From NCBI GenBank assembly GCA_002685255.1, contig NYWU01000016.1:115043-179042 (forward strand): a stretch of 64,000 nt of DNA, in the 5' to 3' direction. Positions within the stretch are counted from its first letter, which is position 1, and every line of letters begins with the position of its first letter. Below are positions 2,719 through 28,934 of this stretch, in pieces. The translations under genes were made by a program, and so were the position numbers. Origin of the DNA: Idiomarinaceae bacterium. Its GTDB lineage: Bacteria > Pseudomonadota > Gammaproteobacteria > Enterobacterales > Alteromonadaceae. The notes under the pieces were generated by a model, which was not told the origin of the DNA, made no database searches, and worked only from the letters and a program-made list of their open reading frames with translations.

Positions 2719-4257
2719 TTAGTCAGTGCTCAACTGATACCCGAGCACACTTAAATATTTATTCTCGCGAGCGATATCCGCTTCCAGTATCGCGCTTTTT
2801 GCCAACGGTCCTTGTAGCTTCAATAATAATGTCGAGCCTTTTAACTTGACCGAGTGCAACACGTTATGCGTCTGTCGACTCGCGTTGAGTAATACCGCCA
2901 ATCGAACCACCACAATCATGCGAGCAACGGTAAGGTGGTCAAACTGAGCAAATTCGGACAAGTCATCGACAATAATCTTCTTACGGAAATAGCGACACAA
3001 CAAGGCGAGCACGCGCTGCTCATCTGAGCTAAAGCCTGGCATATAAGCGTTCGAGAGAATATAGCCCGAGTGCTTTTGAATACCGCTTGAGCTTATGTTC
3101 ATGCCCACCTCATGCAAGCCACTCGCGCCAGCGAGCAAAAGTTTGATGTCAGGTGTATTCAGTTGCCAGGCTTTACCGAGTCCCTGCAAAATGCATTCGA
3201 CCGAAGCCCATACTCGTTGCGCTTGAGCATCATCCACTTGATAGCGCGCAGCCATACTTTGAATAGTTTTATAACGAATGTCTTTGTGAAAAACCGCCTG
3301 TTCTGCGAGTTCAAATAACACGCCTTCACGGAGTGCCGCATCCACTGGACTTAAGCGGTCAATATTAAGTTCTTCACACACGGCTATCAGTACCGCTAAC
3401 CCACCGACAATTGACGGTATCCGTTGTGCCTCGACCTCTGTCGGATCGATCTGTGCTACATTTTTTAACGACAGCAACTTGTCGCGCAACTGATGCAACT
3501 GGTGCAGTGTTATCGTTAAATCGCCATCGGCATTTGGGTTAATCCACTTGGCTAGCGCCTTGATGGTACCAGAAGTGCCCAACACTTGTTCTGTGTGAGC
3601 ACGCTTGAGCTGCTTACTAAATGGCTCAAGCTCTTGTTTAACGCTAAGAATCGCTTTGTGAAAGCGCTTTTCAGTAATCTTGCCTTTCGCAAAAAAACGC
3701 TCCGAAACCACTAAACTACCAAAACTTTTTGATAGCAATATCTCGGGTATCTCACCCTGACCGACGGCAAATTCAGTACTACCACCGCCAATATCAATAA
3801 TCAGCCGTACGCCACGAAACGGAACCGCTTGCGCCACGCCCAAATAGATAAGACGGGCTTCTTCACGACCTGAAATGACTTCGATCGGAAACGGCAATAA
3901 CTGTCGTGCAGCATGAATAAACTTTTTACGATTGTTTGCTTCACGTAAGGTGTGAGTCGCCACAACACGCACCCGCTCCGGACTGAAGTCCCTCAAATGC
4001 ATGGCAAATTGAGACAGCGCATCTAAACCACGCTCAAATGCCTCAACGCTAATGCCTTTATTCACTAATCCTTCAGCCAAAGACACACGTTGCTTGAACT
4101 TATGTATCGGTTGTATTTGTCCTTCAATTACCCGACCAATGATCAAGTGAAAGCTGTTAGAGCCCAAATCAAGCGCTGCCAAGTGCTCACGGTTATCTGA
4201 TTTCAACCAATCAGAGTGAGTAGTTTCAGTCATAAGTTCTTCGTTTGAAGTATTCAT
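2719..4257 (-). CDS. ppx: Exopolyphosphatase (start may be ATG at 4233)
   Basis: AALDLGSNSFHL, VVATHTLREA, IISG.EEARLIYLG-like motif, IDIGGGSTE, ALREGVL; overlaps the ppk stop. Confidence 0.92.
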   Translation of the reverse strand: MNTSNEELMTETTHSDWLKSDNREHLAALDLGSNSFHLIIGRVIEGQIQPIHKFKQRVSLAEGLVNKGISVEAFERGLDALSQFAMHLRDFSPERVRVVATHTLREANNRKKFIHAARQLLPFPIEVISGREEARLIYLGVAQAVPFRGVRLIIDIGGGSTEFAVGQGEIPEILLSKSFGSLVVSERFFAKGKITEKRFHKAILSVKQELEPFSKQLKRAHTEQVLGTSGTIKALAKWINPNADGDLTITLHQLHQLRDKLLSLKNVAQIDPTEVEAQRIPSIVGGLAVLIAVCEELNIDRLSPVDAALREGVLFELAEQAVFHKDIRYKTIQSMAARYQVDDAQAQRVWASVECILQGLGKAWQLNTPDIKLLLAGASGLHEVGMNISSSGIQKHSGYILSNAYMPGFSSDEQRVLALLCRYFRKKIIVDDLSEFAQFDHLTVARMIVVVRLAVLLNASRQTHNVLHSVKLKGSTLLLKLQGPLAKSAILEADIARENKYLSVLGYQLSTD

Positions 4258-6292
4258 GTATTTTTAGTTGTGACCTTAACCGCTTACGACGAGGGATCTG
4301 GTCGCGCTCAGACACTGGCGTGACATATTCATTTACTTGTTCGGCATCGATACGACGCGCTTTGATATTGTCGTTCCACTGCATATCCATAATAGCCAGT
4401 ATATCCTGTTGTGCAGCGTGATCGTATATTGGGCATGCGACCTCAACCCGATGATCAACGTTACGTGTCATCAAATCAGCCGACGAAATAAAGACCTTTG
4501 TATCACCATCATTGCCAAAGATATACACACGCGCATGCTCTAAAAACCGATCAATAATACTGATCACTTCGATATTTTCGCTGAGCTGAGGTACATTGGG
4601 TCGTAACGTACACATTCCGCGCACAATGCAACGAATTTTTACGCCTGCACGACTCGCTCGGTATAGTTGTACGATCAGCGCATTATCAACCAGATTGTTC
4701 AGCTTTAGGAAAATTTCCGCAGGTCTACCATTTTTCGCATGATTAATTTCCCGCTCAATGAGTTCATTAATTCGCGTACGCAAATTATTAGGCGCCACTA
4801 GTAACTGATGCCACGGGTAAAAACGATACGGTTGCTCAAGGTAGTTAAACACATTCTCAATATCTGAGCAGATTTCAGGGTGACACGTAAATAAGCTAAA
4901 GTCGGTATAGAGTTTTGCTGTTTTTTCATGAAAATTCCCCGTCCCAATAACACCATAACGACGAATAGCATGCTCCTCCTGCCGATGTATCAACAATAAC
5001 TTCGAATGAACCTTGAGTCCTTGTAGACCGAAAATCACTTTCACACCGGATTCAGTCAGCTCCTTCGCCCATTCTATATTCGCCTCTTCATCAAAGCGCG
5101 CTTGCAACTCCACCATCACGGTGACTTTCTTTCCGTTTTGCACCGCATCCATCAATGAATGAATAATCCGAGAATTAGGCGCGACACGGTAAATACACAT
5201 ATGAATTTTTAATACATGGGGGTCATAACAGGACTGCCGGATCACCTCAGTAAAGTGGGCAAACCGGTGATACGGATAATAGAGCAAAATGTCGTTACGC
5301 TTAATCGCATCAAATACATTATCCGCCAACTCAAAACGAGGATGCTTGAGTGCAGGAATTGGTGGATGCTCGAGCTTTTTACCGCCTAAGTTTTTAAAGC
5401 TTAAAAAGTCTTTCGTATTGCGATAGCGCCCGCCCGCAACCATGGCATCGTACTGATTAAGATGTAGTTTCTTACTCAACAGGTTCAACATGTGAATCGG
5501 CATTGCCCGATCATACACAAGCCTTACCGGGTCGGCTTTTTCCCGCTGTTTTAAGCCTTCTTCCATACGTTCAAGTAAGCTCTGCTCAATATCATCAGAG
5601 GGACGGTACTCTGCATCACGCGTCATTTTGAAAGAAAAGGCAATAATAGACTGAAACGGCACGATACCTTTAAATAGGCTGGCCAAATTGAGTAATACAA
5701 CATCATCAAGGAATAGTACTTTACGTAGCTTGCTATCACGCTTTTTAGGCAAAATAACAAAACGCGATAATTCATGAGAGGGGATTTGCACCGCAGCGTA
5801 CTTACGTTGACCTGACTGTTGCAATTGCGCCAATAAGTAAGTTTTATCTTCGTTTATGACTTTAACCAAATCGGTCGTATCATTGATGAGGATAGGCACA
5901 ATTTGCGGCTTTATTTTGTTATCAAAATATTCCCGTAAGCCTGCCTTTTCGTCTTCTGTAACCTGCTCACCCGAAGCCCAAATAATGTTTTCAGCCCGCA
6001 ACGCTTTTATCACTTTACGGTGAATCAGCTCGAACTGTTCCTGTAACTGCACTACTTTTTGTTGGATGAGATGCAGTAATCGCTCGCTGTCTTTTCGCTG
6101 TGCATCGGTTTGTGCAAAGAAAATTCGTCGGCGCACATCGGCGACACGGACCTGAAAAAACTCGTCCATGTTAGAGGAAAATATACCGAGGAATCTTACT
6201 CGTTCAATAACGGGCACTTCCTCGTCATTGGCTTCTTGAAGCACGCGCTCGTTAAACGAAAGCCAACTCAACTCTTTAAAATAGAACTTCAT
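4226..6292 (-). CDS. ppk1: Polyphosphate kinase 1
   Basis: KELSWLSFNERVLQEA, FSSNMDEFF, LLYYPYH, VELQARFDEEANI, KVHSKL, RFLEHAR, SSADLMTRN. Confidence 0.95.
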   Translation of the reverse strand: MKFYFKELSWLSFNERVLQEANDEEVPVIERVRFLGIFSSNMDEFFQVRVADVRRRIFFAQTDAQRKDSERLLHLIQQKVVQLQEQFELIHRKVIKALRAENIIWASGEQVTEDEKAGLREYFDNKIKPQIVPILINDTTDLVKVINEDKTYLLAQLQQSGQRKYAAVQIPSHELSRFVILPKKRDSKLRKVLFLDDVVLLNLASLFKGIVPFQSIIAFSFKMTRDAEYRPSDDIEQSLLERMEEGLKQREKADPVRLVYDRAMPIHMLNLLSKKLHLNQYDAMVAGGRYRNTKDFLSFKNLGGKKLEHPPIPALKHPRFELADNVFDAIKRNDILLYYPYHRFAHFTEVIRQSCYDPHVLKIHMCIYRVAPNSRIIHSLMDAVQNGKKVTVMVELQARFDEEANIEWAKELTESGVKVIFGLQGLKVHSKLLLIHRQEEHAIRRYGVIGTGNFHEKTAKLYTDFSLFTCHPEICSDIENVFNYLEQPYRFYPWHQLLVAPNNLRTRINELIEREINHAKNGRPAEIFLKLNNLVDNALIVQLYRASRAGVKIRCIVRGMCTLRPNVPQLSENIEVISIIDRFLEHARVYIFGNDGDTKVFISSADLMTRNVDHRVEVACPIYDHAAQQDILAIMDMQWNDNIKARRIDAEQVNEYVTPVSERDQIPRRKRLRSQLKIHEYFKRRTYD

Positions 6293-6354: not shown

Positions 6355-6372
6355 ATGACAGTAAAATGACAA
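6355..6372 (-). promoter_or_regulatory. Pho box upstream of ppk-ppx
   Basis: minus strand TTGTCAT-TTTA-CTGTCAT (11-bp period), about 63 bp upstream of the ppk ATG. Confidence 0.7.
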
Positions 6373-7071
6373 CTAGAAGGTATAACGTAGAGCAATCATC
6401 GCCACGTAGGGGTCAATTGCTACATCCGTCTGCTCAATTGTACTGCCGTTTAAACGAACTGACGCTGTAGTATCAATGTCGATATGGCTCACCATTAACT
6501 GCGCACCCCAACGCTCTGAGATCTGCCAGTTCACACCCGCTTGTATTGCCGCGCCCCAAGAATTGGATAACGCCAAATCTACGGAGTCATCAGCGCTCGC
6601 TACGCCGAGTGTTTGTAACGTTTGGGTTAGCTCGCTCGATGCCTGATCATCGAAAAACGTGGTGTAGTTAACACCTAAGCCAACAAAGGGCTCAAGTCCT
6701 TGAACACCCGTATCCCAATGATATTGAACAAATAACGTTGGCGGTAAATGTTTGGTCTTACCGATAGATAAGCCGCTCAAAGTGCCCGAACCGTAAATAT
6801 CGTGAGAGAACGGCGTCGCTGCCACCAATTCAAGCCCCCAACCATTTTCCCACTGATAGTCAAAAGTGAGACCGAGTTGGGTGTTGGTGTTTACGGCGAC
6901 ACCGGTTGAATTAGCAGGTAGTCCAGCTACTTGCTCTACCGTGTTTAATGAGCTGCTACTATCATCAGGAATCACTGAAATAGCACCCACATTAATTGAG
7001 AAGTCTTGCGCTTGGGCAAACGATGCGGCGAACAGTGTTGCAAGTGCAACGGCGGAAGTTAAACGCTTCAT
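6373..7071 (-). CDS. ompW: Outer membrane protein W
   Basis: signal peptide; VELVAATPFSHD-like motif, KHLPPTL, PFVGLGVNYT.F, terminal YTF. Confidence 0.9.
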   Translation of the reverse strand: MKRLTSAVALATLFAASFAQAQDFSINVGAISVIPDDSSSSLNTVEQVAGLPANSTGVAVNTNTQLGLTFDYQWENGWGLELVAATPFSHDIYGSGTLSGLSIGKTKHLPPTLFVQYHWDTGVQGLEPFVGLGVNYTTFFDDQASSELTQTLQTLGVASADDSVDLALSNSWGAAIQAGVNWQISERWGAQLMVSHIDIDTTASVRLNGSTIEQTDVAIDPYVAMIALRYTF

Positions 7072-7945: not shown

Positions 7946-7985
7946 TATTCACAGATTTGTCATGAGCTATTAAACGGGTTGTCAT
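7946..7985 (+). promoter_or_regulatory. Pho-box-like 11-bp-phased array upstream of the plcP-like gene
   Basis: TATTCAC(7946)-TTGTCAT(7957)-TATTAAA(7968)-TTGTCAT(7979). Confidence 0.55.
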
Positions 7986-8029
7986 CTTTACGGGCTATTT
8001 TTTCAGCGTTCATCATCGGGAGGCTGAAC

Positions 8030-8839
8030 ATGAGCAAACACAAGCCATCGGTCAACACGCTGTTTCTTTCTGATATTCACCTAGGTTCATCCACCAGTCA
8101 TTGTGAGCTGCTGCTCGAGTTTTTAAAGCATGTTCGCTTTAAGAAGCTAGTTTTAGTGGGTGATATTATTGATTTATGGGCGATTCGTAGCAAAGGCCAA
8201 GGATTAGATGAATCGCATATTAAAGTGATTCGCAAACTGCTCAAGCAGGCGCAAGAAGGCGTGCAGGTTGTTTATATTACCGGCAATCACGATGGCGGTT
8301 TACGCCAACTGCTCGATGACTACCCGTTTGATAAGGGCATCGTTAATATCCAACTGACCAATACCTATGATTACTGGGCACTTAACGGTAGCCGCTACAT
8401 TGTAATGCACGGTGATCAGTTTGATAATCAAGTACGAGGCCATCGCCTGCTCAATTGGGTTGGTGATACCATCTATGAGGGCTTGCTTAAAATTAACCGT
8501 CGCTTTAATCGTTGGCGCTCTCGCAAGGGTTACGTCTATTGGAGCTTAGCCAAAGCAGTGAAGTCGCGTTCTTCGCAAGCATTGAAATATGTTCACCGTT
8601 ACCAACTTGCTGCCACCGCCTACGCTGAGCGTAAGGGTTATGACGGTGTCATATGCGGACATATCCATGTACCCGCCGATCGTCATTTTAATAATACGCA
8701 TTATTTAAATACCGGTGACTGGCAAGATTCCTGTAGCGCTATCGTTGAACACGAAAATGGCGACTGGGAGCTATTAGACGTACCTTCATGGCTTAATAGT
8801 CAGGCGAGCATCAAACAACTCAAACCCCGTGTAGCTTAA
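8030..8839 (+). CDS. PlcP-like metallophosphoesterase (usually annotated UDP-2,3-diacylglucosamine diphosphatase family)
   Basis: SDIHLG, GDIIDLW, GNHD, HGDQFD, YWSL, CGHIH, NTGDW..SCSAIVEH; GGGAGG RBS before ATG 8030 (track start 7979 is a TTG inside the Pho box). Confidence 0.75.
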   Translation: MSKHKPSVNTLFLSDIHLGSSTSHCELLLEFLKHVRFKKLVLVGDIIDLWAIRSKGQGLDESHIKVIRKLLKQAQEGVQVVYITGNHDGGLRQLLDDYPFDKGIVNIQLTNTYDYWALNGSRYIVMHGDQFDNQVRGHRLLNWVGDTIYEGLLKINRRFNRWRSRKGYVYWSLAKAVKSRSSQALKYVHRYQLAATAYAERKGYDGVICGHIHVPADRHFNNTHYLNTGDWQDSCSAIVEHENGDWELLDVPSWLNSQASIKQLKPRVA

Positions 8840-21684: not shown

Positions 21685-23586
21685 ATGCAGAATGAATCGA
21701 CCTTAAAAGACTTACCGCAATTACTCTGCGGCCCCTTAGTTCGGCATGTTGAGTCTGATCATTTTTATTTATGGCTAGTCACGAAAAGTGACCATGTTCC
21801 TCAGGTGGAATGTAGTATCGATGAGACGCCGGTCGATATCAAACAAACAGACCGAGTCATTGCTATTGGCAAGCATGCTTATGTGATATTGATAAGGGTC
21901 GAGCCTACTCAGCCGCTTGCCCACAACCAACGAATCGGTTACGACCTAGTTTGGCCCACCGAAAACGAGCGTTTATCAGACCAACACGACTTCTTGCTTT
22001 ATTCAGGGCAAACATGTCCGCAGTTTGTTTATAAAGAGACGATTGACCAGCTGCTTCATGGTTCATGCCGGCGACCTCATCACCCCGCCCGTGATGGGCT
22101 ATCGCGTGCTGATAAAGAGATTGAGGCACACCTCGATCGCCCCTCGAAACGCGCGGGCATTCTTCTGCACACAGGGGATCAAGTCTACGTTGATGATGTC
22201 GCAGGCCCAATGTTGGCATCCATACACGCGTTAATTGATGTACTAAAGCTATCTGATGAGACCTTGCCCGATGATCAACTGAATCAACTGGATGACTTAA
22301 TTCAACACCCAAATGGCTATTATAGCCGCCAATCTTTGCTACCGGATACGAAAGCCAACGAACCCCTGACTGAGAAATTTTTTGGTGGCGTGAAAAAACC
22401 GATTTTTACCTCAGCACATGCGGGTAACCATCTGATCACGGCCGCTGAAGTTTTCGCCATGTATATCCTCTGTTGGTCACCCACGCCGTGGCGTGTAATC
22501 AAAGTGCAACAGCCGTCGCAGTTAAACCAAGAACAACAAAAACGCTTTACCGATGAACAGGCAGCCATTGATGAATTCGTTAAAACATTGCCACAAGCAG
22601 CGCGTGCCATGGCCCACAGCATCAATTACATGATGTTTGACGATCACGACGTAACCGACGACTGGAATCTATCCGCCGCCTGGGAGCTTACGGCCTATCA
22701 CCATCCTTTTTCAAAACGTATTGTCGGCAACGCGCTGTGGGGCTATTTAATTTTTCAAGGTTGGGGCAACCAGCCCGAAGTGGTAACCCCCCTTATGGAT
22801 GCCACTGCACAATTACTTGAAAAGCCATTAACTGAGCAACCAGAAGAGCACGATCAACTTATCGAGCAACTGCTGGACTGGGAGCAGTGGCAGTTCAGCC
22901 TTAATACGCGACCCAAAATTCTTGTGCTCGATACCCGCACCCGTCGCTGGCGAAGTGAGCGTAGTATCCGCAAACCATCGGGATTAATGGATTGGGAATC
23001 TTTAATGGAGATGCAGCACCAAATTATGGATGAAGAGGCTGTGATTTTAGTGTCCCCTGCACCGATATTTGGCGTGAAACTAATAGAAGCGATCCAAACG
23101 GTGTTTACCGCGTTGGGTAAACCGCTGGTTGTTGATGCTGAAAACTGGATGGCGCACAACGGTGCTGCCAATACCCTACTCAATATCTTTTCCCATAAAC
23201 GCACACCGCAAAAGTTCACGATTCTGTCGGGTGACGTGCACTATTCATTTGTATACGACGTGCAGTTACGGCGCGAAAAAGCCGAATCATCGATATGGCA
23301 AATTACCAGTAGTGGCGTTAAAAACGAGTTCCCGAATACATTATTAGAGTGGCTCGACCGTATGAATCGGTGGCTTTACTCCCCGCGTTCACCTCTCAAC
23401 TGGCTAACTAAACGACGCCGTTTCGCCGTGTCGCCACGGCTGCCGACCGGCCGTGATGCCGGTGAGCGACTCTGGAATCACTCCGGTATCGGCTGGGTCA
23501 GTTTTGATCAGGACGGTGCTCCGTCGCGTATCCGACAATTAAATGCAGACGGTAACGAAACCGAGTTTCTAAAGGAGGAGTCATGA
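21685..23586 (+). CDS. PhoD-like (alkaline phosphatase D family) metallophosphatase without signal peptide
   Basis: HGSCRRPH, GDQVYVDD, FDDHDVTDDWN, LDTRT, SGDVHYS. Confidence 0.8.
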   Translation: MQNESTLKDLPQLLCGPLVRHVESDHFYLWLVTKSDHVPQVECSIDETPVDIKQTDRVIAIGKHAYVILIRVEPTQPLAHNQRIGYDLVWPTENERLSDQHDFLLYSGQTCPQFVYKETIDQLLHGSCRRPHHPARDGLSRADKEIEAHLDRPSKRAGILLHTGDQVYVDDVAGPMLASIHALIDVLKLSDETLPDDQLNQLDDLIQHPNGYYSRQSLLPDTKANEPLTEKFFGGVKKPIFTSAHAGNHLITAAEVFAMYILCWSPTPWRVIKVQQPSQLNQEQQKRFTDEQAAIDEFVKTLPQAARAMAHSINYMMFDDHDVTDDWNLSAAWELTAYHHPFSKRIVGNALWGYLIFQGWGNQPEVVTPLMDATAQLLEKPLTEQPEEHDQLIEQLLDWEQWQFSLNTRPKILVLDTRTRRWRSERSIRKPSGLMDWESLMEMQHQIMDEEAVILVSPAPIFGVKLIEAIQTVFTALGKPLVVDAENWMAHNGAANTLLNIFSHKRTPQKFTILSGDVHYSFVYDVQLRREKAESSIWQITSSGVKNEFPNTLLEWLDRMNRWLYSPRSPLNWLTKRRRFAVSPRLPTGRDAGERLWNHSGIGWVSFDQDGAPSRIRQLNADGNETEFLKEES

Positions 23587-24548
23587 GTCAACCTAAGGCC
23601 GCAGAATGGCAACGTTTCGAACGATACAGCGATAAGCAGACTCATTATCAAGTTGCAATTATTACCGATGAGGACCAATCGTCTAAAATTCAATTAGAAG
23701 ATGGGCAATCGGCTTGGCACTCACGTTTACGGATTGATGAAGTGGCTCGTCAAGTCGACTCAGCTACAGGTGATGTGCAATATCATTTCCATGACCTTCC
23801 TCCAGACGATACCCATGAATATTCTTTAGTTTCACTGATCGCTGAAGGTGATCGGGGGGCGGAGTTCTCTGAACTCGTTCAGTTTGGTAAGCACTTACTT
23901 ACTTTTGATGATCGAACGGGACTTGTATGTGAGGTCCGCAACTTTAGTCAGTTAGTTCCTCGTCAGATATTGATGACTGGCAGTGGAGACGAAGAGTTCA
24001 AGGGCTTTAAAAGCGAGTGGGCTACCTTAAAAGACAATCACCTCTACATCGGAAGTCATGGTAAACGTCCACAAGAAGAGTGGATTAAGGTGATTGGTCG
24101 TCACTACGGTTTGCAAAGTGTCAACTGGCACGAAAACTATCAAAAAATACGCGAAGCAGCAGGAGTCTCTGGCGAAGGTTATATTATTCACGAGGCGGCG
24201 GAGTGGCACCCCGTTCTAAAAAAATGGCTATTTTTTCCACGTAAGTTATCCAACCAACCGTTTGACCCCGAACATGATGAGCGTGAATGTGGTAACAACC
24301 GATTGTTCATTTGCAGTGAGGACTTTTCCCATATTCAAGTCATTGAGGTCGGTCAACGTCATCCTGAGCGCGGCGTATCTTCTATCAAACTTGTTCCCGG
24401 CCGACAGAACGAGTGTATCGGGCTAAAAAGCGTGGAAATTGGCGACCGTACCGAAACCTATTTTTTCGCGTTTGATCTAACTGGCCGCGTGCTGCAACAA
24501 GACACGTTAATTGGCCACTACAAATGCGAAGGTATAGAGATTCTATAG
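23583..24548 (+). CDS. Calcium-activated nucleotidase / Cimex-type apyrase (CANT1 family)
   Basis: AIITDED, AEGDRGAEFSEL, FDDRTG, GFKSEW, YIIHEA, FFPRK, GVSSIK, LKSVE resemble CANT1 motifs (recalled); ATGA overlap with the PhoD-like gene. Confidence 0.8.
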   Translation: MSQPKAAEWQRFERYSDKQTHYQVAIITDEDQSSKIQLEDGQSAWHSRLRIDEVARQVDSATGDVQYHFHDLPPDDTHEYSLVSLIAEGDRGAEFSELVQFGKHLLTFDDRTGLVCEVRNFSQLVPRQILMTGSGDEEFKGFKSEWATLKDNHLYIGSHGKRPQEEWIKVIGRHYGLQSVNWHENYQKIREAAGVSGEGYIIHEAAEWHPVLKKWLFFPRKLSNQPFDPEHDERECGNNRLFICSEDFSHIQVIEVGQRHPERGVSSIKLVPGRQNECIGLKSVEIGDRTETYFFAFDLTGRVLQQDTLIGHYKCEGIEIL

Positions 24549-24558
24549 TATTTTATCG

Positions 24559-26787
24559 TTAGTCGCGCTTATCCTTATTATTGAATCGCGCTAAAGTTTC
24601 GCCGTAAACACACTCAACATGGCGAGTAAACGCCTCTACAGAGTAATCCGCAGCAAACTTAAGCGCCTGTTTACCGAGTCGCTCACGCAGCTCATCGTCA
24701 TTGATGAGCTTAACCACTTGCTCACTCCAACGGTCTTGTTTTGCAGGCGTTTTATAGCCGTTAATATCATCTTCGACGACATCTTCTATACCGCTCGAGC
24801 GCACAGCAACAACCGGCATACCCGCAGCCATCGCCTCAAGGATAACCATGCCTTGGGTTTCAGACTGCGAGGCAAACACAAATAAGTCACCCAACGCATA
24901 CCATTCCGGCATATCCTTAGGTGGAACGGCACCCACTAATTGAACACAATCAGTCAGTCCATTGTCATCAATCCGCTGTTGCAGATAGTCGCGCTGATGC
25001 CCTTCACCGATTTGCAGCAAGCGCACAGGCTTATTAGCACGCTTACGGATATCGACCATCGCGTCTATCATGAAGTCGATATTTTTCTCATCAGAGAGAC
25101 GCGCCACACTCACCAAAATACATTCGTCGTCACTCATGGACTGTGATGTTTTGATTGAATCAATCTTATCGCGGCTGACTTTTTGGAAGCGCTGATACTC
25201 AATGCCTGTTGGTTGCACATAGATAGGTCGCGTTACACCAATCATTCGTAAATACTCTTCAACCGACTGGGTCGGCACAATGACACTATCGCATTTGTTG
25301 GCAAAGCGGCGCACCATAATATGCGCGATGATATTCCGAAATAAGTTACCCGGCAGCATGACATAATGAGCATAGTGTTCTAGCCGTGTGTGGTAGGTAT
25401 AAACCACGGGCACTTTCAAACGCTTGGCCATGTAAACACCGAGCGAGCCTATCCAAAACGGATGATGCACATGAATAATATCAGGCTTGAGTGCTTTTAC
25501 CTTTTGTCTAACTACACGTGAAAATAAATGCGCGAACTGGAATTCACTGTTTTCACCAAATGAGAACCAATTAGGCATACGAATAACATGCGCTTCATCG
25601 GTACGGGCATTCGCGTATTTGGGTGCCACGATCGAGATTTTATGTCCGAGATGCTTCAGGCCCACCCTTAAGCGCTCGATAGAAATAGGTACACCGCCGA
25701 TAAACGGTAAATAGTTGTTGGTGAACATCACGATGTTCAGTGGCTTACTTAACCATGGTTTTGGATCGATATCATAATCAGGATAATAAGACTTACCCAC
25801 GAACACCATTTGATACAGCTTTACGCTCACAAGTAGCAGTGCGCTTACGATAAGAATAAAGTTGATGTAGCCTGCGTAGAGCAACGAGTAAATAAAGAAC
25901 CAGAGGCTTTCGAGTATTTTGAGCACCGGATGTTGACCGACTTCAAGCTCATTCACATTCACCTCGATGCCGGCATCTGTTACATGCACCATCAAATAGT
26001 GATAGAAGCTATTATCGTGATTGAGCACTAAGCCACCTGCGCCACCTGTAATATAAAATGGCGTGCCTTTGTACATCACCTTATCGTAAATCGATAGATG
26101 ACTGGAAAATACCGCGTCAACCGAGTGCTGCTCAACCAGTTGCAATAGCCCCGAGCGAAAGCCCAGCGGCTGTAAAAAGTCATCATCCGTCGCAAACAAG
26201 GTCTCGCTCTTAGGCTGCACAGGCGGGTGAGATACAAAAATAAAGCGGTGCTTTGACTCATCCGCGCGTAAAATATCCGTCAGCCAACGCAGTTGCCACT
26301 GCCATGGCGTTTTACCTGTGCTATCCAAAAAGATAAAACGCGTGCTGTCTGCTACAAAGCTAAAAAAGTGAGGGCCGAAATGTTCGTAGTAGCGAAAGCT
26401 ACCAAATTCGTCGTATTCATTATCACCAAAAGTGAGCAAATAGGGTTTATTCAAATGCGACAGACTGCCATACAAGGCACGATATTTATCTTCGCCACCA
26501 CCACTCACCGCATTACCAGCGGATACAACAAAGTCGATATCAGCTTGGTTTAATTCAGGAATGATCCGCTGCTCAAAGATACCAATCGAATTGTTAATAT
26601 TGCCCAGTACCGCAAACTGATAGTCTGAATCACCTTGCAAACGACTACTGATACTCGCCACCTGATCGCTATGCACCACTTCAAATTCAGGCTGGCTAAA
26701 ATTCAAATAAATCTTATAGCCAATAACCAACGCTACAATGGCGACATTGACGTAAAACAGTAACTTCAGCCATTTATTTTTATTCAT
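24559..26787 (-). CDS. Fusion: TM - degenerate calcineurin-like phosphoesterase domain - TM - GT4 glycosyltransferase (DAG glycosyltransferase-like)
   Basis: GT4 motifs FTNNYLPFIGGV, HVHHPF, YTYHT, SETQGMVILEAMAAG; N-terminal domain GNINN / GNAV / GDNE / SHPP / SSH. Confidence 0.8.
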   Translation of the reverse strand: MNKNKWLKLLFYVNVAIVALVIGYKIYLNFSQPEFEVVHSDQVASISSRLQGDSDYQFAVLGNINNSIGIFEQRIIPELNQADIDFVVSAGNAVSGGGEDKYRALYGSLSHLNKPYLLTFGDNEYDEFGSFRYYEHFGPHFFSFVADSTRFIFLDSTGKTPWQWQLRWLTDILRADESKHRFIFVSHPPVQPKSETLFATDDDFLQPLGFRSGLLQLVEQHSVDAVFSSHLSIYDKVMYKGTPFYITGGAGGLVLNHDNSFYHYLMVHVTDAGIEVNVNELEVGQHPVLKILESLWFFIYSLLYAGYINFILIVSALLLVSVKLYQMVFVGKSYYPDYDIDPKPWLSKPLNIVMFTNNYLPFIGGVPISIERLRVGLKHLGHKISIVAPKYANARTDEAHVIRMPNWFSFGENSEFQFAHLFSRVVRQKVKALKPDIIHVHHPFWIGSLGVYMAKRLKVPVVYTYHTRLEHYAHYVMLPGNLFRNIIAHIMVRRFANKCDSVIVPTQSVEEYLRMIGVTRPIYVQPTGIEYQRFQKVSRDKIDSIKTSQSMSDDECILVSVARLSDEKNIDFMIDAMVDIRKRANKPVRLLQIGEGHQRDYLQQRIDDNGLTDCVQLVGAVPPKDMPEWYALGDLFVFASQSETQGMVILEAMAAGMPVVAVRSSGIEDVVEDDINGYKTPAKQDRWSEQVVKLINDDELRERLGKQALKFAADYSVEAFTRHVECVYGETLARFNNKDKRD

Positions 26788-27833
26788 GCGTCCTTCCTGC
26801 GACTTGCCAACATCTCATACTGCAACGTCACCATGCCAATCAGCATGCCCAAATAAATCGTGATAAAGCGCCAGCTAAAGATAATTAATAATAAATGATT
26901 ACTTTGCACAAACTGCGCAAAAAATGAACCGAAAACCCCCTCAGAAACACCTGATGCTCCCGGGGTTGGTGCAAAATACATGACAAAGGTGGTCACCACC
27001 AAAAGACCAACGGACTGCCAATAAGGCACCGTATAGTCGAGTCCCCATAATAAAATAGCGGGGAAACTGAAGAGGCTTAATAAAAAGACAACCGTGAAAA
27101 ACACAGAACCCCATACATAGAGCGGCTTGCCCTTACAATAATCTCGAAAACTGTCGGCAAAGCGGAGCATTTCACGTTTGCTCCAAAAGCCAAGCACACG
27201 ACATTTATGTGCACTCATTAAATTGACTGTCGTGAGCAATCTAAGCACGCCATTGATCGGCGCAATCAGCCAATGGGTTTTGAACAGCACCATCGCAAAA
27301 AATGCTAAGTAAGCGGTGACCAATACAGCAAGCGAGCCGCCAATGCCTTTAGATAGCGTTGAGTCAGAGAGCGCAGGCAGTGTCAGCAATAACACCGGCG
27401 TGAATGTGAAGATAAAAATCACCGCCAACACAGTCCGAATAGTGGTTGCTGCCGTCGCACGTCCCACCGGCACACCCTGCTTCGCCAAATACCACACTTG
27501 CGCAAAGCCTCCACCGGTCGCCATCGGTGTGACATTGGAAAAAAACATATTAATAAAAATCAGTCGCGTCATTGGCGCTGCCGGCACCCGATACCCCAGT
27601 GCTCTTAAAGTAAAGTAGAGGCGCAATCCGTCACTGGCGAAATAGACAATAAGTAACGCCAGTAAACTGAGCAGCACCGTAGGTTGCAGCAACTGACTAT
27701 CAAATTGAAGCTCAGCACCTTGGAAAAACTGCTGAATGCTGTAAAAACCGAGCGCCGTTAATACAACAAAGAGGCCACTGAAAATCAGCAGCCTCTTCCA
27801 CGCGATAGGTTGTTTCTCTGTATTGATAGGCAT
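26784..27833 (-). CDS. LPG-synthase transmembrane-domain (UPF0104) flippase-like protein
   Basis: multi-TM; TPMATGGG, PTPGASGVSE, WRFITIY; overlaps the GT start by 4 nt. Confidence 0.8.
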   Translation of the reverse strand: MPINTEKQPIAWKRLLIFSGLFVVLTALGFYSIQQFFQGAELQFDSQLLQPTVLLSLLALLIVYFASDGLRLYFTLRALGYRVPAAPMTRLIFINMFFSNVTPMATGGGFAQVWYLAKQGVPVGRATAATTIRTVLAVIFIFTFTPVLLLTLPALSDSTLSKGIGGSLAVLVTAYLAFFAMVLFKTHWLIAPINGVLRLLTTVNLMSAHKCRVLGFWSKREMLRFADSFRDYCKGKPLYVWGSVFFTVVFLLSLFSFPAILLWGLDYTVPYWQSVGLLVVTTFVMYFAPTPGASGVSEGVFGSFFAQFVQSNHLLLIIFSWRFITIYLGMLIGMVTLQYEMLASRRKDA

Positions 27834-28507
27834 TAGTACCCGGGCATTAAAAACACTTCGCGAACACAGTTCCGCGGATGCGCATTAAGCGCATGTAAGA
27901 CCGCGTCGGCCACATCTTGAGGGTCTAATTTATCCGGCTTTGGCTCATCAAAGAACGGGGTGTTGACCATACCTGGTGCGATAACAGTACAGCGTCCGCT
28001 CCATTCGCGCATTTCTTCCGCTAAATTCTGGGCGAAGCCATGCACAAACCACTTGCTTGCCCCGTAAACAGAGCCTTTAATCGCGGTGCGCCCTGCTGCC
28101 GAACCGGTCATAATAAAGTGACCCGTGGATTTCTTTAAGTGCGGCAAAGTAAGTTTGGCGGTATAGAGTAAAGCATTGATATTAAGATCAATCATTTCGC
28201 GCCACTCGTTAGGGTCGCCATTTTCAGTGCCTGCAGCATTCAATCCCTTACCCGCATTAGCAAATACGGCATCCAGTTGGCCAAACTGATCAACGGTTTG
28301 CTGTACCACACGCTCCAGTTGCTGATAGTCCGTTACATCGGCCGCAATAGGTAATACGTGCTCAGCGCCCAACTCATTTGCCAATGCTTGCAGCTTATCC
28401 TCACTGCGAGCGGTTGCCACAACCTTGTAACCTTGCTTTACCGCCTCTTTAACGGTGGCTTCGCCAATCCCCGAGGAGGCGCCTGTAATCAACAACACTT
28501 TGGCCAT
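27833..28507 (-). CDS. Short-chain dehydrogenase/reductase (NADP-dependent type)
   Basis: TGASSGIG, NAG, YGASK. Confidence 0.9.
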   Translation of the reverse strand: MAKVLLITGASSGIGEATVKEAVKQGYKVVATARSEDKLQALANELGAEHVLPIAADVTDYQQLERVVQQTVDQFGQLDAVFANAGKGLNAAGTENGDPNEWREMIDLNINALLYTAKLTLPHLKKSTGHFIMTGSAAGRTAIKGSVYGASKWFVHGFAQNLAEEMREWSGRCTVIAPGMVNTPFFDEPKPDKLDPQDVADAVLHALNAHPRNCVREVFLMPGY

Positions 28508-28565: not shown

Positions 28566-28934
28566 TTAGGTCGGGGCTAAAAACAAGATACTCACCCACG
28601 TAATTAACATCAGTAGAATCGAAATAAAAACCGCTGCTGAGGCAATATCCTTTGCTTTCCCGCTCAGCTCATGGAAGTCAGGACCAATACGATCAACAAC
28701 CGCTTCAATGGCGGAGTTAAGTAGCTCTGTAATAAGCACGATGCCGTAAGTAATAATAAGTAATAGCTTGGCTATCAGTCCGCTTGGCACAAATAATAGT
28801 GTTGGAATGATAATAATAAGTAATGCACACTCTTGCCTAAATGCAGCTTCACTTCTCAACGCCGCGACCAAACCGCGAAACGAATATCGGTTCGCATTAA
28901 TGATTCTGCGTAGACCTTTTTGACTTGGTTTCAC
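28566..28934 (-). CDS. dgkA: Diacylglycerol kinase
   Basis: SEAAFRQE, ELLNSAIEAVVDRI, GKAKDIASAAV; GTG start. Confidence 0.92.
   Translation of the reverse strand: MKPSQKGLRRIINANRYSFRGLVAALRSEAAFRQECALLIIIIPTLLFVPSGLIAKLLLIITYGIVLITELLNSAIEAVVDRIGPDFHELSGKAKDIASAAVFISILLMLITWVSILFLAPT

What the first reader, a model, noticed from the sequence alone, without database searches (positions are those of the whole stretch)
24559..26787. Receptor-like glycosyltransferase: periplasmic degenerate phosphoesterase domain fused across the membrane to GT4
Seen: TM1 (about aa 8-28), then a ~260-aa calcineurin-like domain with systematically altered metal ligands (GNINN for GDxH, GNAV for GDxV, GDNE for GNHE, SSHLS for GHxH, HPP retained), then a long hydrophobic segment, then an intact GT4 (FTNNYLPFIGGV, SETQGMVILEAMAAG). 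Established: this GT4 subtype resembles DAG glucosyl/galactosyltransferases. Inference: if the second segment spans once, the pseudo-phosphoesterase faces the periplasm and could sense phosphate or a phosphoester and switch glycolipid synthesis on directly. I do not recall this architecture being characterised.
Basis: partly seen in the sequence, partly recalled or inferred. Interest (0 to 1): 0.7.

Follow-up and report, generated by a model that had tools for sequence, protein, structure and literature searches.

The report
Glycolipid synthase with dead periplasmic phosphoesterase
An Idiomarina inner-membrane enzyme joins a cytoplasmic lipid sugar-transferase to a periplasmic phosphoesterase-fold domain that has lost its metal-binding residues yet is strongly conserved, and it almost always sits beside a putative lipid flippase gene; nobody has studied this design.

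Summary
Window 24559-26787 (minus strand) encodes a 742-aa protein with five parts:
- TM1.
- A roughly 250-aa metallophosphoesterase (MPE) fold with 5-6 of its 7 metal ligands replaced.
- One long TM helix.
- A conserved linker.
- An intact GT4 with the EX7E motif.

The ligand swaps are not local decay. They recur across Idiomarina, Marinobacter and more distant fusions, and the domain is under strong purifying selection (dN/dS about 0.02, like the GT4). Positive-inside charges and the AlphaFold model put the dead domain in the periplasm and the GT4 in the cytoplasm.

The fusion is directly preceded by an MprF-type flippase-like gene in 78 of 80 loci. In three lineages without that gene, a DedA/VTT gene is adjacent instead. 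So the product is most likely a glycolipid that gets flipped, as proposed for HexSDF and GpgSDF.

The domain derives from uncharacterised stand-alone TM-MPE-TM proteins that keep canonical ligands. It is unrelated to PlcP.

Sensing of phosphate is untested. I found no Pho box, and the only sensor-kinase fusion of this cassette is a singleton.

The ZIP and dgkA neighbours are specific to the I. baltica group. The SDR neighbour is found in most but not all Idiomarina and Pseudidiomarina loci.

The scan has noted this architecture before on other genomes (e1-2692589, e1-3245071, e1-3829397), with the same reading.

The parts
24559..26787 (-). Whole ORF, 742 aa: TM1, pseudo-MPE, TM2, linker, GT4
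26695..26781 (-). TM1 (aa 3-31). Three Lys precede it and an acidic stretch follows, so the N-terminus is predicted inside. A conserved GYKxYLN motif sits at its periplasmic end.
25930..26676 (-). Periplasmic metallophosphoesterase-fold domain (aa 38-286) with the metal ligands replaced: N63, N65, N92, D122/N123 and S232. H187 and H230 remain.
25804..25929 (-). One long helix (aa 287-328). Its hydrophobic core, about W296-L324, forms TM2. N309 in mid-membrane is invariant.
25738..25803 (-). Juxtamembrane linker (aa 329-350, motif YYPDYDxDPxPWL). It is the most conserved segment between Idiomarina and Marinobacter (70-80% identity) and has low pLDDT.
24562..25737 (-). Cytoplasmic GT4 (GT-B) glycosyltransferase domain (aa 351-742), with the EX7E motif at E643 and E651
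26784..27833 (-). MprF-type flippase-like membrane protein (PF03706). Its stop overlaps the fusion's start (ATGA). It is the conserved partner gene.
27833..28507 (-). Classical SDR oxidoreductase, overlapping the flippase start by 1 nt. It is found upstream in most but not all Idiomarina and Pseudidiomarina loci and in no other lineage.
28566..28934 (-). Diacylglycerol kinase DgkA (PF01219). It is a neighbour only in the I. baltica group, and separately near the fusion in one distant lineage (L015).

Best explanation
The protein is a bitopic inner-membrane glycolipid synthase.

The cytoplasmic GT4 domain is of the Mgs / 1,2-diacylglycerol alpha-glucosyltransferase type and its EX7E motif is intact. 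It transfers a sugar from a nucleotide sugar to diacylglycerol, or to another glycerolipid, in the inner leaflet. The translationally coupled MprF-type flippase-like protein then moves the product to the periplasmic leaflet. In other lineages a DedA/VTT protein appears to take that role.

The N-terminal TM1-domain-TM2 cassette places a metallophosphoesterase fold in the periplasm. This fold can no longer build the binuclear metal centre, so it is not a phosphoesterase. It is nevertheless kept under strong selection. It descends from a family of stand-alone TM-MPE-TM ecto-enzymes.

My reading of its role is a non-catalytic binding module. It reads something at the periplasmic face, either the flipped glycolipid or another phospho- or glyco-headgroup. 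It passes this to the GT4 through TM2 and the highly conserved juxtamembrane linker.

Shown: the architecture, the ligand loss, the conservation and the gene pairing. Inferred: the topology, the lipid acceptor, the flipping and any signalling.

Sub-odds for the ectodomain's role:
- Ligand-binding or regulatory: about 0.35-0.4.
- Passive anchor or scaffold: about 0.25.
- Product hand-off with the flippase: about 0.2.
- Residual catalysis: about 0.1.
For: Architecture and topology. TM1 is helix 3-31, the second hydrophobic segment is a single helix at 287-328, and the charges follow the positive-inside rule.

MPE fold.

Ligand loss is conserved:
- GNINNS, SAGNAVSGGGEDKYRA, TFGxNE and FSxNLS recur in 15 Idiomarina, Pseudidiomarina and Marinobacter proteins.
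- every fusion of 700 aa or more among the 150 best representatives lacks the GD, GNH and GHxH motifs. Stand-alone relatives of 280-360 aa keep GDN/GDL/GNH[DE]/SHIH.

Selection:
- the ectodomain is 59-66% identical, against 57-67% for the GT4.
- dN/dS is 0.016-0.022 for the ectodomain and 0.038 for the GT4.

Lipid GT:
- the best NCBIfam matches are the alpha-monoglucosyl-DAG synthase Mgs and GlcNAc-PG synthase.
- JGI labels the more distant relatives as 1,2-diacylglycerol 3-alpha-glucosyltransferase.

Flippase pairing:
- PF03706 lies directly upstream here.
- It is also directly upstream in Marinobacter and a lineage at 37% identity, in G500, G131 and G220, in Nitrincola, and in 78 of 80 Idiomarina and Marinobacter loci.
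- Lineages without it (G409, G226, Vreelandella) have a PF09335 VTT/DedA gene adjacent.

Precedent for GT plus MprF-like flippase modules: HexSDF (PMC10128005) and GpgSDF (PMC12713373).

The cassette is modular:
- A stand-alone degenerate form, P0139.
- A stand-alone canonical form, P0154.
- A hybrid histidine kinase, P0159, with the cassette as its only extracytoplasmic domain.
Against: - No experiment exists for any member, and the searched literature holds none.
- The topology is only predicted.
- The acceptor and the sugar are unknown. The Mgs and GpgS scores are far below their curated cut-offs.
- Flippase activity has not been demonstrated even for HexF or GpgF (PMC10128005, PMC12713373).
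- The histidine-kinase analogue is a single metagenomic protein.
- Two loci keep an intact fusion with no adjacent flippase (L077, L096).
- Structure prediction of the N-terminal cassette with the flippase gave no interface, which is uninformative.
- No GT-B enzyme is known, to my knowledge, to be gated across a membrane.
Confidence: 0.6

Rival explanations
1. The ectodomain is only a structural anchor or scaffold and binds no small ligand. This would parallel the purple-acid-phosphatase-like pseudoenzyme GAP50 or Vps29. It would hold the GT4 at the membrane and perhaps organise a complex with the flippase or other envelope proteins.
For: - GAP50 (3tgh) and Vps29 appear among the structural neighbours.
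- The flippase gene is adjacent in nearly all loci.
- The metal-ligand positions vary among distant fusions, as expected if the pocket no longer matters.
Against: - Two TM helices alone would anchor the enzyme, so a 250-aa domain at dN/dS about 0.02 implies more than tethering.
- The fusion stays intact where the MprF-like gene is missing or replaced by DedA/VTT. That argues against a specific dock on one flippase family.
- Complex prediction gave no support, though that result is uninformative.
Confidence: 0.25
2. The ectodomain is still an enzyme with altered chemistry, for example a one-metal or metal-free lipid phosphodiesterase. It would release diacylglycerol in the outer leaflet for the fused GT4, making the protein a fused analogue of the PlcP-Agt phosphate-starvation pathway.
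For: - The canonical stand-alone relatives are membrane-anchored MPEs, and two of them have an alpha/beta-hydrolase neighbour, which hints at lipid metabolism.
- K101 and R103 after motif II are shared with the canonical relatives.
- DgkA is nearby in two separate lineages.
- A PlcP/LpxH-like gene elsewhere in the window shows that the genome probably remodels lipids.
Against: - The bridging Asp, both motif-I ligands, the GNH His and the second His of GHxH are replaced.
- The replacing residues are not even constant across the clade: N/E/S/D/G at position 63, and H/R/K/S at position 187.
- The domain shows no similarity to the PlcP-like protein (E 0.32).
- There is no Pho box upstream here or in orthologous loci.
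Confidence: 0.1
3. The GT4 does not act on a membrane lipid. It glycosylates a polysaccharide, a polyprenol-linked intermediate or a protein, and the PF03706 partner has a non-flippase role.
For: - GT4 is a very broad family.
- All specific NCBIfam scores are below their cut-offs.
- The nearest solved structures are BshA, MshA and WaaG-type enzymes.
Against: - The two best-scoring curated models are both glycerolipid glycosyltransferases, and the Mgs model aligns end to end (351-738 against 2-394 of 398).
- No polysaccharide genes (Wzx, Wzy, Wza, initiating transferase) lie in the conserved neighbourhood.
- The only constant neighbours belong to two unrelated families implicated in lipid translocation.
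Confidence: 0.1

Closest known systems
HexSDF of Clostridioides difficile (PMC10128005) and GpgSDF of Pseudomonas aeruginosa (PMC12713373)
   Same: An operon pairs a cytoplasmic lipid glycosyltransferase with a stand-alone MprF-type flippase-like protein (PF03706). The product is a glycosylated membrane lipid proposed to be flipped outward.
   Different: Those systems include a deacetylase and make amino-sugar lipids, and their synthases have no periplasmic domain. Here there is no deacetylase; many Idiomarina loci have an SDR instead. The synthase is fused through two TM helices to a dead MPE fold. The flippase scores only 32 bits against the GpgF model, whose cut-off is 320.
alpha-Monoglucosyldiacylglycerol synthase Mgs (NCBIfam NF049988) and the Agt/Agt1/Agt2 enzymes of the PlcP-Agt pathway (PMC4796936, PMC8528852)
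   Same: A GT4 fold and full-length alignment to the Mgs model. Diacylglycerol is the likely acceptor.
   Different: The score is 220 bits against a cut-off of 400. Those enzymes are peripheral, soluble-type proteins without TM helices or ectodomains. Agt genes sit beside plcP under a Pho box, which is not the case here.
Class III phosphodiesterase-type metallophosphoesterases: Rv0805 (2hy1) and GpdQ (3d03); also purple acid phosphatases
   Same: They are the nearest structures to the ectodomain (Foldseek E 3e-14 to 1e-10, TM about 0.66-0.7). The order of the five motif-bearing loops is the same.
   Different: Those enzymes have all seven metal ligands and a binuclear centre. Here 5-6 of 7 are replaced, including the bridging Asp. 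Sequence identity is only 17-19%.
MPE-fold pseudoenzymes used as scaffolds: Plasmodium GAP50 (3tgh) and Vps29
   Same: A metallophosphoesterase fold retained without a working metal site, for a non-catalytic role. GAP50 is also membrane-anchored. Both appear in the Foldseek list.
   Different: They are eukaryotic, unrelated in sequence and not fused to an enzyme on the other side of a membrane.
MprF (lysyl-phosphatidylglycerol synthase/flippase)
   Same: It couples a cytoplasmic lipid-modifying domain with a PF03706 flippase module.
   Different: In MprF the two are one polypeptide and the chemistry is aminoacylation. Here they are two genes, the chemistry is glycosylation, and the synthase carries an extra periplasmic domain.

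Membership tests
Calcineurin-like metallophosphoesterase superfamily (PF00149) | Four-layer alpha/beta-beta/alpha MPE fold | tested here: met
   Pfam 25.2 bits against a cut-off of 21.5. AlphaFold model pLDDT 92.8. Foldseek to Rv0805, PAPs and GpdQ at probability 1.00.
Calcineurin-like metallophosphoesterase superfamily (PF00149) | Motif I D-x-H and motif II G-D (bridging Asp) metal ligands | tested here: not met
   G-N63-I-N65 and G-N92, and Asn in all 15 close orthologues. Position 63 is N/E/S/D/G and position 92 is N/D in distant fusions.
Calcineurin-like metallophosphoesterase superfamily (PF00149) | Motif III G-N-H-[DE] | tested here: not met
   G-D122-N123-E124. The first position is variable and the second is N, H or K. 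Only G121 and E124 are invariant.
Calcineurin-like metallophosphoesterase superfamily (PF00149) | Motif IV His and motif V G-H-x-H | tested here: inconclusive
   H187 aligns with the GpdQ motif-IV His but is R, K or S in distant fusions. In motif V (S-H230-L-S232) the second His is lost, and the first is Asn in most orthologues.
Glycosyltransferase family 4 (retaining GT-B) | Both Rossmann halves (PF13439 and PF00534) and the EX7E motif | tested here: met
   E-values 2.5e-30 and 2e-37. E643 and E651 are invariant.
alpha-Monoglucosyldiacylglycerol synthase Mgs (NF049988, equivalog) | Score at or above the curated cut-off of 400 bits | tested here: not met
   219.7 bits, full-length alignment. 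The protein works like this family, but membership is not shown.
GpgS GlcNAc-PG synthase (NF053787) and GpgF flippase (NF053789) | Scores at or above the cut-offs of 480 and 320 bits, and an adjacent deacetylase | tested here: not met
   136.1 and 32.2 bits. No deacetylase in the operon.
PlcP-Agt phosphate-starvation lipid remodelling | A PlcP (LpxH-like MPE) partner or domain, and a Pho box upstream | tested here: not met
   The ectodomain is unrelated to the window's LpxH/PlcP-like ORF at 7979-8839 (E 0.32). No Pho box here and none enriched in 78 orthologous loci.
Synthase plus MprF-type flippase lipid modules | A PF03706 flippase-like gene co-transcribed with the lipid-modifying enzyme | tested here: met
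   PF03706 at 112.9 bits, with its stop overlapping the fusion's start. The adjacency is conserved.
Transmembrane receptor-like one-component sensor | Ligand binding by the ectodomain changes the activity of the cytoplasmic domain | not testable with these tools
   The support is only indirect: the conserved TM2 and linker, and one hybrid kinase with the same cassette.

The most novel reading that the evidence does not exclude
The TM1-pseudoMPE-TM2 cassette is a genuine periplasmic sensor. It binds a headgroup in the outer leaflet or a periplasmic phosphoester, most plausibly the enzyme's own flipped product. It then gates the fused cytoplasmic GT4 through TM2 and the YYPDYD linker. That would make this a single-polypeptide transmembrane feedback receptor for membrane-lipid composition, a way of controlling a GT-B enzyme that I know of no precedent for.
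Probability: 0.2. Interest if true: 0.8.

Novelty: new variant of a known kind. Interest (0 to 1): 0.55.

Why it matters
How bacteria measure and adjust the lipid make-up of the outer leaflet of the inner membrane is largely unknown. This protein places a strongly selected, catalytically dead phosphoesterase fold on the periplasmic side of a glycolipid synthase. Across lineages it is paired with one of two unrelated putative lipid translocators.

If the ectodomain binds a lipid headgroup or a periplasmic solute, the system would directly link the state of the periplasmic leaflet to cytoplasmic lipid synthesis. It would also add a bacterial case of pseudoenzyme reuse.

The system further gives a genetic handle on the still unproven flippase activity of stand-alone MprF-like and DedA proteins. 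Relatives occur in 362 of about 185,600 species genomes, mostly marine and halophilic Gammaproteobacteria, including genetically tractable Marinobacter.

Tried and rejected
1. PlcP-Agt fusion idea: rejected. The ectodomain has no similarity to the window's LpxH/PlcP-like ORF, and its relatives are a different MPE group.

2. Pho regulation: no Pho box within 3 mismatches upstream of the operon. In 78 orthologous loci there were 4 weak hits in 23 kb, at about the background rate.

3. Sensor-kinase family: the hybrid kinase P0159 has the cassette as its N-terminal sensor. A word-based search found no further kinases, so this is anecdotal.

4. Complex prediction of residues 1-350 with the flippase scored 0.00. 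The tool states that this is evidence neither for nor against binding.

5. Apparent stand-alone GT4 relatives in Vreelandella and Nitrincola turned out to be the same fusion split into two ORFs. I found no close GT4 without the cassette.

6. ZIP-dgkA as part of a conserved operon: rejected. That arrangement occurs only in the I. baltica group (3 of 80 loci).

7. Promoter and terminator scans were at chance level.

8. Literature searches for this architecture found nothing.

9. Metatranscriptome contigs contain parts of the gene, but DNA carry-over cannot be excluded.

Full report
**What is there**

The finding's coordinates hold one ORF on the minus strand, 24559-26787, encoding 742 aa. Its parts are as follows.
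- Pfam finds a weak but above-threshold Metallophos match at aa 74-231 (25.2 bits; cut-off 21.5).
- Pfam also finds both halves of a GT4 enzyme, Glyco_transf_4 at 363-532 and Glycos_transf_1 at 546-710.
- Hydropathy gives two hydrophobic segments, aa 5-28 and 295-331. Three Lys precede the first and an acidic stretch follows it.
- An AlphaFold2 model built on 26 full-length homologues has mean pLDDT 84.5. It shows helix 3-31, a compact domain at 38-280 (mostly above 90), one continuous helix at 287-328, a low-confidence linker, and the GT-B fold from 351.

A GT4 needs cytoplasmic nucleotide sugars and the N-terminus obeys the positive-inside rule. The simplest topology is therefore N-in, ectodomain in the periplasm, GT4 in the cytoplasm. 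This is a prediction, not a measurement.

By its best hits the organism is Idiomarina of the I. baltica group. The ectodomain is 99% identical to that of I. baltica OS145.

**The ectodomain is a metallophosphoesterase fold without its metal site**

Modelled alone it has pLDDT 92.8. Its nearest solved structures are Rv0805 (E 3e-14), purple acid phosphatases and GpdQ. The pseudo-phosphatase GAP50 and Vps29 appear further down the list.

The HMMER alignment to GpdQ puts G-N92 on the bridging G-D, D122-N123 on N-H of GNH, and H187 on the motif-IV His. Read against the seven canonical ligands, the protein has N63, N65, N92, D122, H187, H230 and S232.

**The swaps are conserved, not local decay**

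In 15 proteins from Idiomarina, Pseudidiomarina, Marinobacter and an Alteromonadaceae MAG, the following motifs are invariant or nearly so:
- GNINNS
- SAGNAVSGGGEDKYRA
- TFGxNE
- HP[PL]
- FS[AS][NH]L
- TGGAGG

An exhaustive HMMER search with the domain alone found 1712 relatives. I aligned the best 150 to a domain profile, and they split into two groups.
- Every protein of 700 aa or more lacks the GD, GNH and GHxH ligands. These are all GT4 fusions, except one two-domain MPE protein (P0171) that keeps its ligands. The residues at those positions even vary among them: N/E/S/D/G at position 63 and H/R/K/S at position 187.
- Most stand-alone proteins of 280-360 aa keep GDN.., GDL, GNH[DE], SHIH and GGAGA.

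The stand-alone proteins have the same TM1-domain-TM2 layout with short basic tails. So the cassette is an old unit of membrane-anchored ecto-phosphoesterases, themselves uncharacterised. The GT4 fusions carry a derived, ligand-less version of it.

**The dead domain is under strong selection**

Between Idiomarina and Marinobacter the ectodomain is 59-66% identical and the GT4 is 57-67% identical. TM2 plus the linker at 331-350 are the most conserved parts, at up to 80%.

Against I. baltica OS145 and Idiomarina sp. MD25a, Nei-Gojobori dN/dS is 0.016-0.022 for the ectodomain. For the GT4 it is 0.038 against Idiomarina sp. MD25a; the OS145 GT4 had no non-synonymous change.

**What the GT4 probably does**

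- The EX7E glutamates (E643, E651) are invariant.
- The best curated models are the alpha-monoglucosyl-diacylglycerol synthase Mgs (219.7 bits, end-to-end alignment) and the GlcNAc-phosphatidylglycerol synthase GpgS (136 bits). Both act on glycerolipids and both scores are well below their cut-offs.
- More distant stand-alone relatives carry a JGI label of 1,2-diacylglycerol 3-alpha-glucosyltransferase.

So the protein works like a lipid glycosyltransferase. Membership of a specific family is not shown, and the sugar and acceptor are unknown.

**The conserved partner is a lipid translocator**

The gene upstream (26784-27833) is an MprF-type flippase-like protein (PF03706, 112.9 bits). Its stop overlaps the fusion's start. 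The same gene sits directly upstream in:
- Marinobacter
- a lineage only 37% identical
- three other gammaproteobacterial genomes
- Nitrincola
- 78 of 80 loci from species genomes; these are mostly Idiomarina and Marinobacter and so are not independent

In three lineages with no such neighbour, a VTT/DedA-family gene (PF09335) lies next to the fusion instead. These are G409, G226 and Vreelandella boliviensis. Whole-genome searches of G409 and G226 found no PF03706 at all. The DedA gene is co-directional with a 3-nt gap in one lineage and convergent in the other two.

DedA/VTT proteins are, from established knowledge, implicated in lipid and polyprenyl-phosphate translocation. Replacement of one putative translocator family by another, around a constant synthase, is good comparative evidence that the product must cross the membrane. 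That would bring it to the leaflet where the ectodomain sits.

Two exceptions keep an intact fusion without either neighbour:
- A Marinobacter MAG in which the flippase gene has been lost from an otherwise identical context.
- A Pseudomonas isolate in which the fusion lies beside an integrase.

**Other neighbours**

- The SDR (27833-28507) lies upstream in 14 of the 80 loci. All 14 are among the roughly 20 Idiomarina and Pseudidiomarina loci, and several of those lack it.
- The ZIP and dgkA genes precede the cluster only in the I. baltica group, 3 of 80 loci.
- In G226 the fusion is flanked by two LtaS/OpgB-like sulfatase-family genes and a dgkA. This resembles the logic of lipoteichoic-acid synthesis: glycolipid anchor, flippase, periplasmic phosphoglycerol transfer, DAG recycling. 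It is a lead for the product's fate, nothing more.

**Phosphate link**

- The window holds an LpxH/PlcP-like MPE at 7979-8839, scoring 54 bits against the LpxH cut-off of 134. It is unrelated to the ectodomain, so the protein is not a PlcP-Agt fusion.
- No Pho box lies upstream of the operon.
- In 78 orthologous loci, Pho-box-like sites upstream are at about background frequency.
- The PhoD-like and apyrase genes are convergent neighbours and not part of the unit. The apyrase is strain-variable.

Nothing here supports phosphate as the signal, and nothing excludes it.

**What the ectodomain is for**

Four observations bear on this.
- It is too well conserved to be a mere tether.
- It is kept with either type of flippase neighbour and with none. 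This argues against a dock specific to the MprF-like protein.
- The cassette is modular. It exists alone in both canonical and degenerate forms. It is fused to GT4. Once, it forms the sole extracytoplasmic part of a hybrid histidine kinase, with TM at 13-41, the domain at 52-285, TM at 306-336, then PAS-HisKA-HATPase-REC. A follow-up search found no more such kinases.
- TM2, its invariant mid-membrane Asn309 and the YYPDYD linker are the best-conserved parts.

I therefore favour a non-catalytic binding module coupled to the GT4, at about 0.35-0.4. The alternatives are a passive scaffold (about 0.25), product hand-off (about 0.2) and residual catalysis (about 0.1). Prediction of a complex between residues 1-350 and the flippase gave no interface, which the tool says is uninformative.

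**Distribution and novelty**

- Relatives of the ectodomain were confirmed in 362 of about 185,600 species genomes.
- They were found in 4 of 399 sampled other genomes of its class (taken as Gammaproteobacteria), in all 3 other sampled genomes of the window's genus, and in 2 of about 58 other genera of the family.
- Parts of the gene occur in marine metatranscriptome assemblies.
- I found no paper on this architecture.
- The closest studied systems are HexSDF (PMC10128005) and GpgSDF (PMC12713373). Both share the synthase-plus-MprF-like-flippase logic but have no ectodomain.
- Earlier notes of this scan describe the same fusion on other genomes and reached the same reading.

I class it as a new variant of a known kind.

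Noticed in passing
window 23583-24548 (+): The Cimex/CANT1-type apyrase gene (PF06079) is strain-variable. I. baltica OS145 and Idiomarina sp. MD25a have the PhoD-like gene directly after the GT4 gene. Contigs from two metatranscriptome runs of one sample join 23573 to 24558 with 20 other bases between them.
   Followed up: partly
window 7979-8839 (+): An LpxH-like metallophosphoesterase with canonical ligands. It scores 54 bits against the LpxH cut-off of 134, which is compatible with a PlcP-type phospholipase C. It is unrelated in sequence to the ectodomain studied here.
   Followed up: partly
window 6355-6372 (-): The best Pho-box-like site in the window (TTGTCATTTTACTGTCAT, 1 mismatch). 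It lies between ompW (6373-7071) and polyphosphate kinase ppk1 (4226-6292), upstream of ppk1.
   Followed up: no
L007:5001-8435: A metagenomic hybrid histidine kinase (1144 aa). Its only extracytoplasmic part is a degenerate TM-MPE-TM cassette (GNENNR / GDL / GEKE / ASHIE), followed by PAS, HisKA, HATPase and REC, with cheW and an MCP gene downstream. It is a singleton in the searches made.
   Followed up: partly
L015:5150-13680 (genome G226): Here the fusion is flanked by two LtaS/OpgB-like sulfatase-family membrane proteins and a dgkA on one side and a convergent DedA/VTT gene on the other. The gene set is reminiscent of lipoteichoic-acid-type glycolipid decoration.
   Followed up: partly
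L017:4219-6500 and L018:2996-5235: In Vreelandella boliviensis and Nitrincola sp. A-D6 the fusion is split into two ORFs, within or just after the TGGAGG motif. This is either a frameshift or an assembly error, and it is why the GT4 part is annotated as a stand-alone protein there.
   Followed up: partly
L019 against window 24559-26787: Synonymous divergence from I. baltica OS145 is mosaic along the gene: dS 0.43 in the ectodomain, 0 in TM2 and the linker, and 0.04 in the GT4. This suggests recent recombination inside the gene between strains.
   Followed up: no
L096:2160-5693: In Pseudomonas sp. SJZ079 the fusion lies next to a tyrosine-recombinase (phage integrase) gene and has no flippase neighbour. 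This suggests horizontal acquisition of the fusion alone.
   Followed up: no
L008:3-1795 and L009:37-1420: Both a degenerate stand-alone cassette (P0139) and a canonical stand-alone cassette (P0154) overlap or abut an alpha/beta-hydrolase gene. This is a possible hint that the ancestral ecto-MPE family acts on lipids.
   Followed up: no
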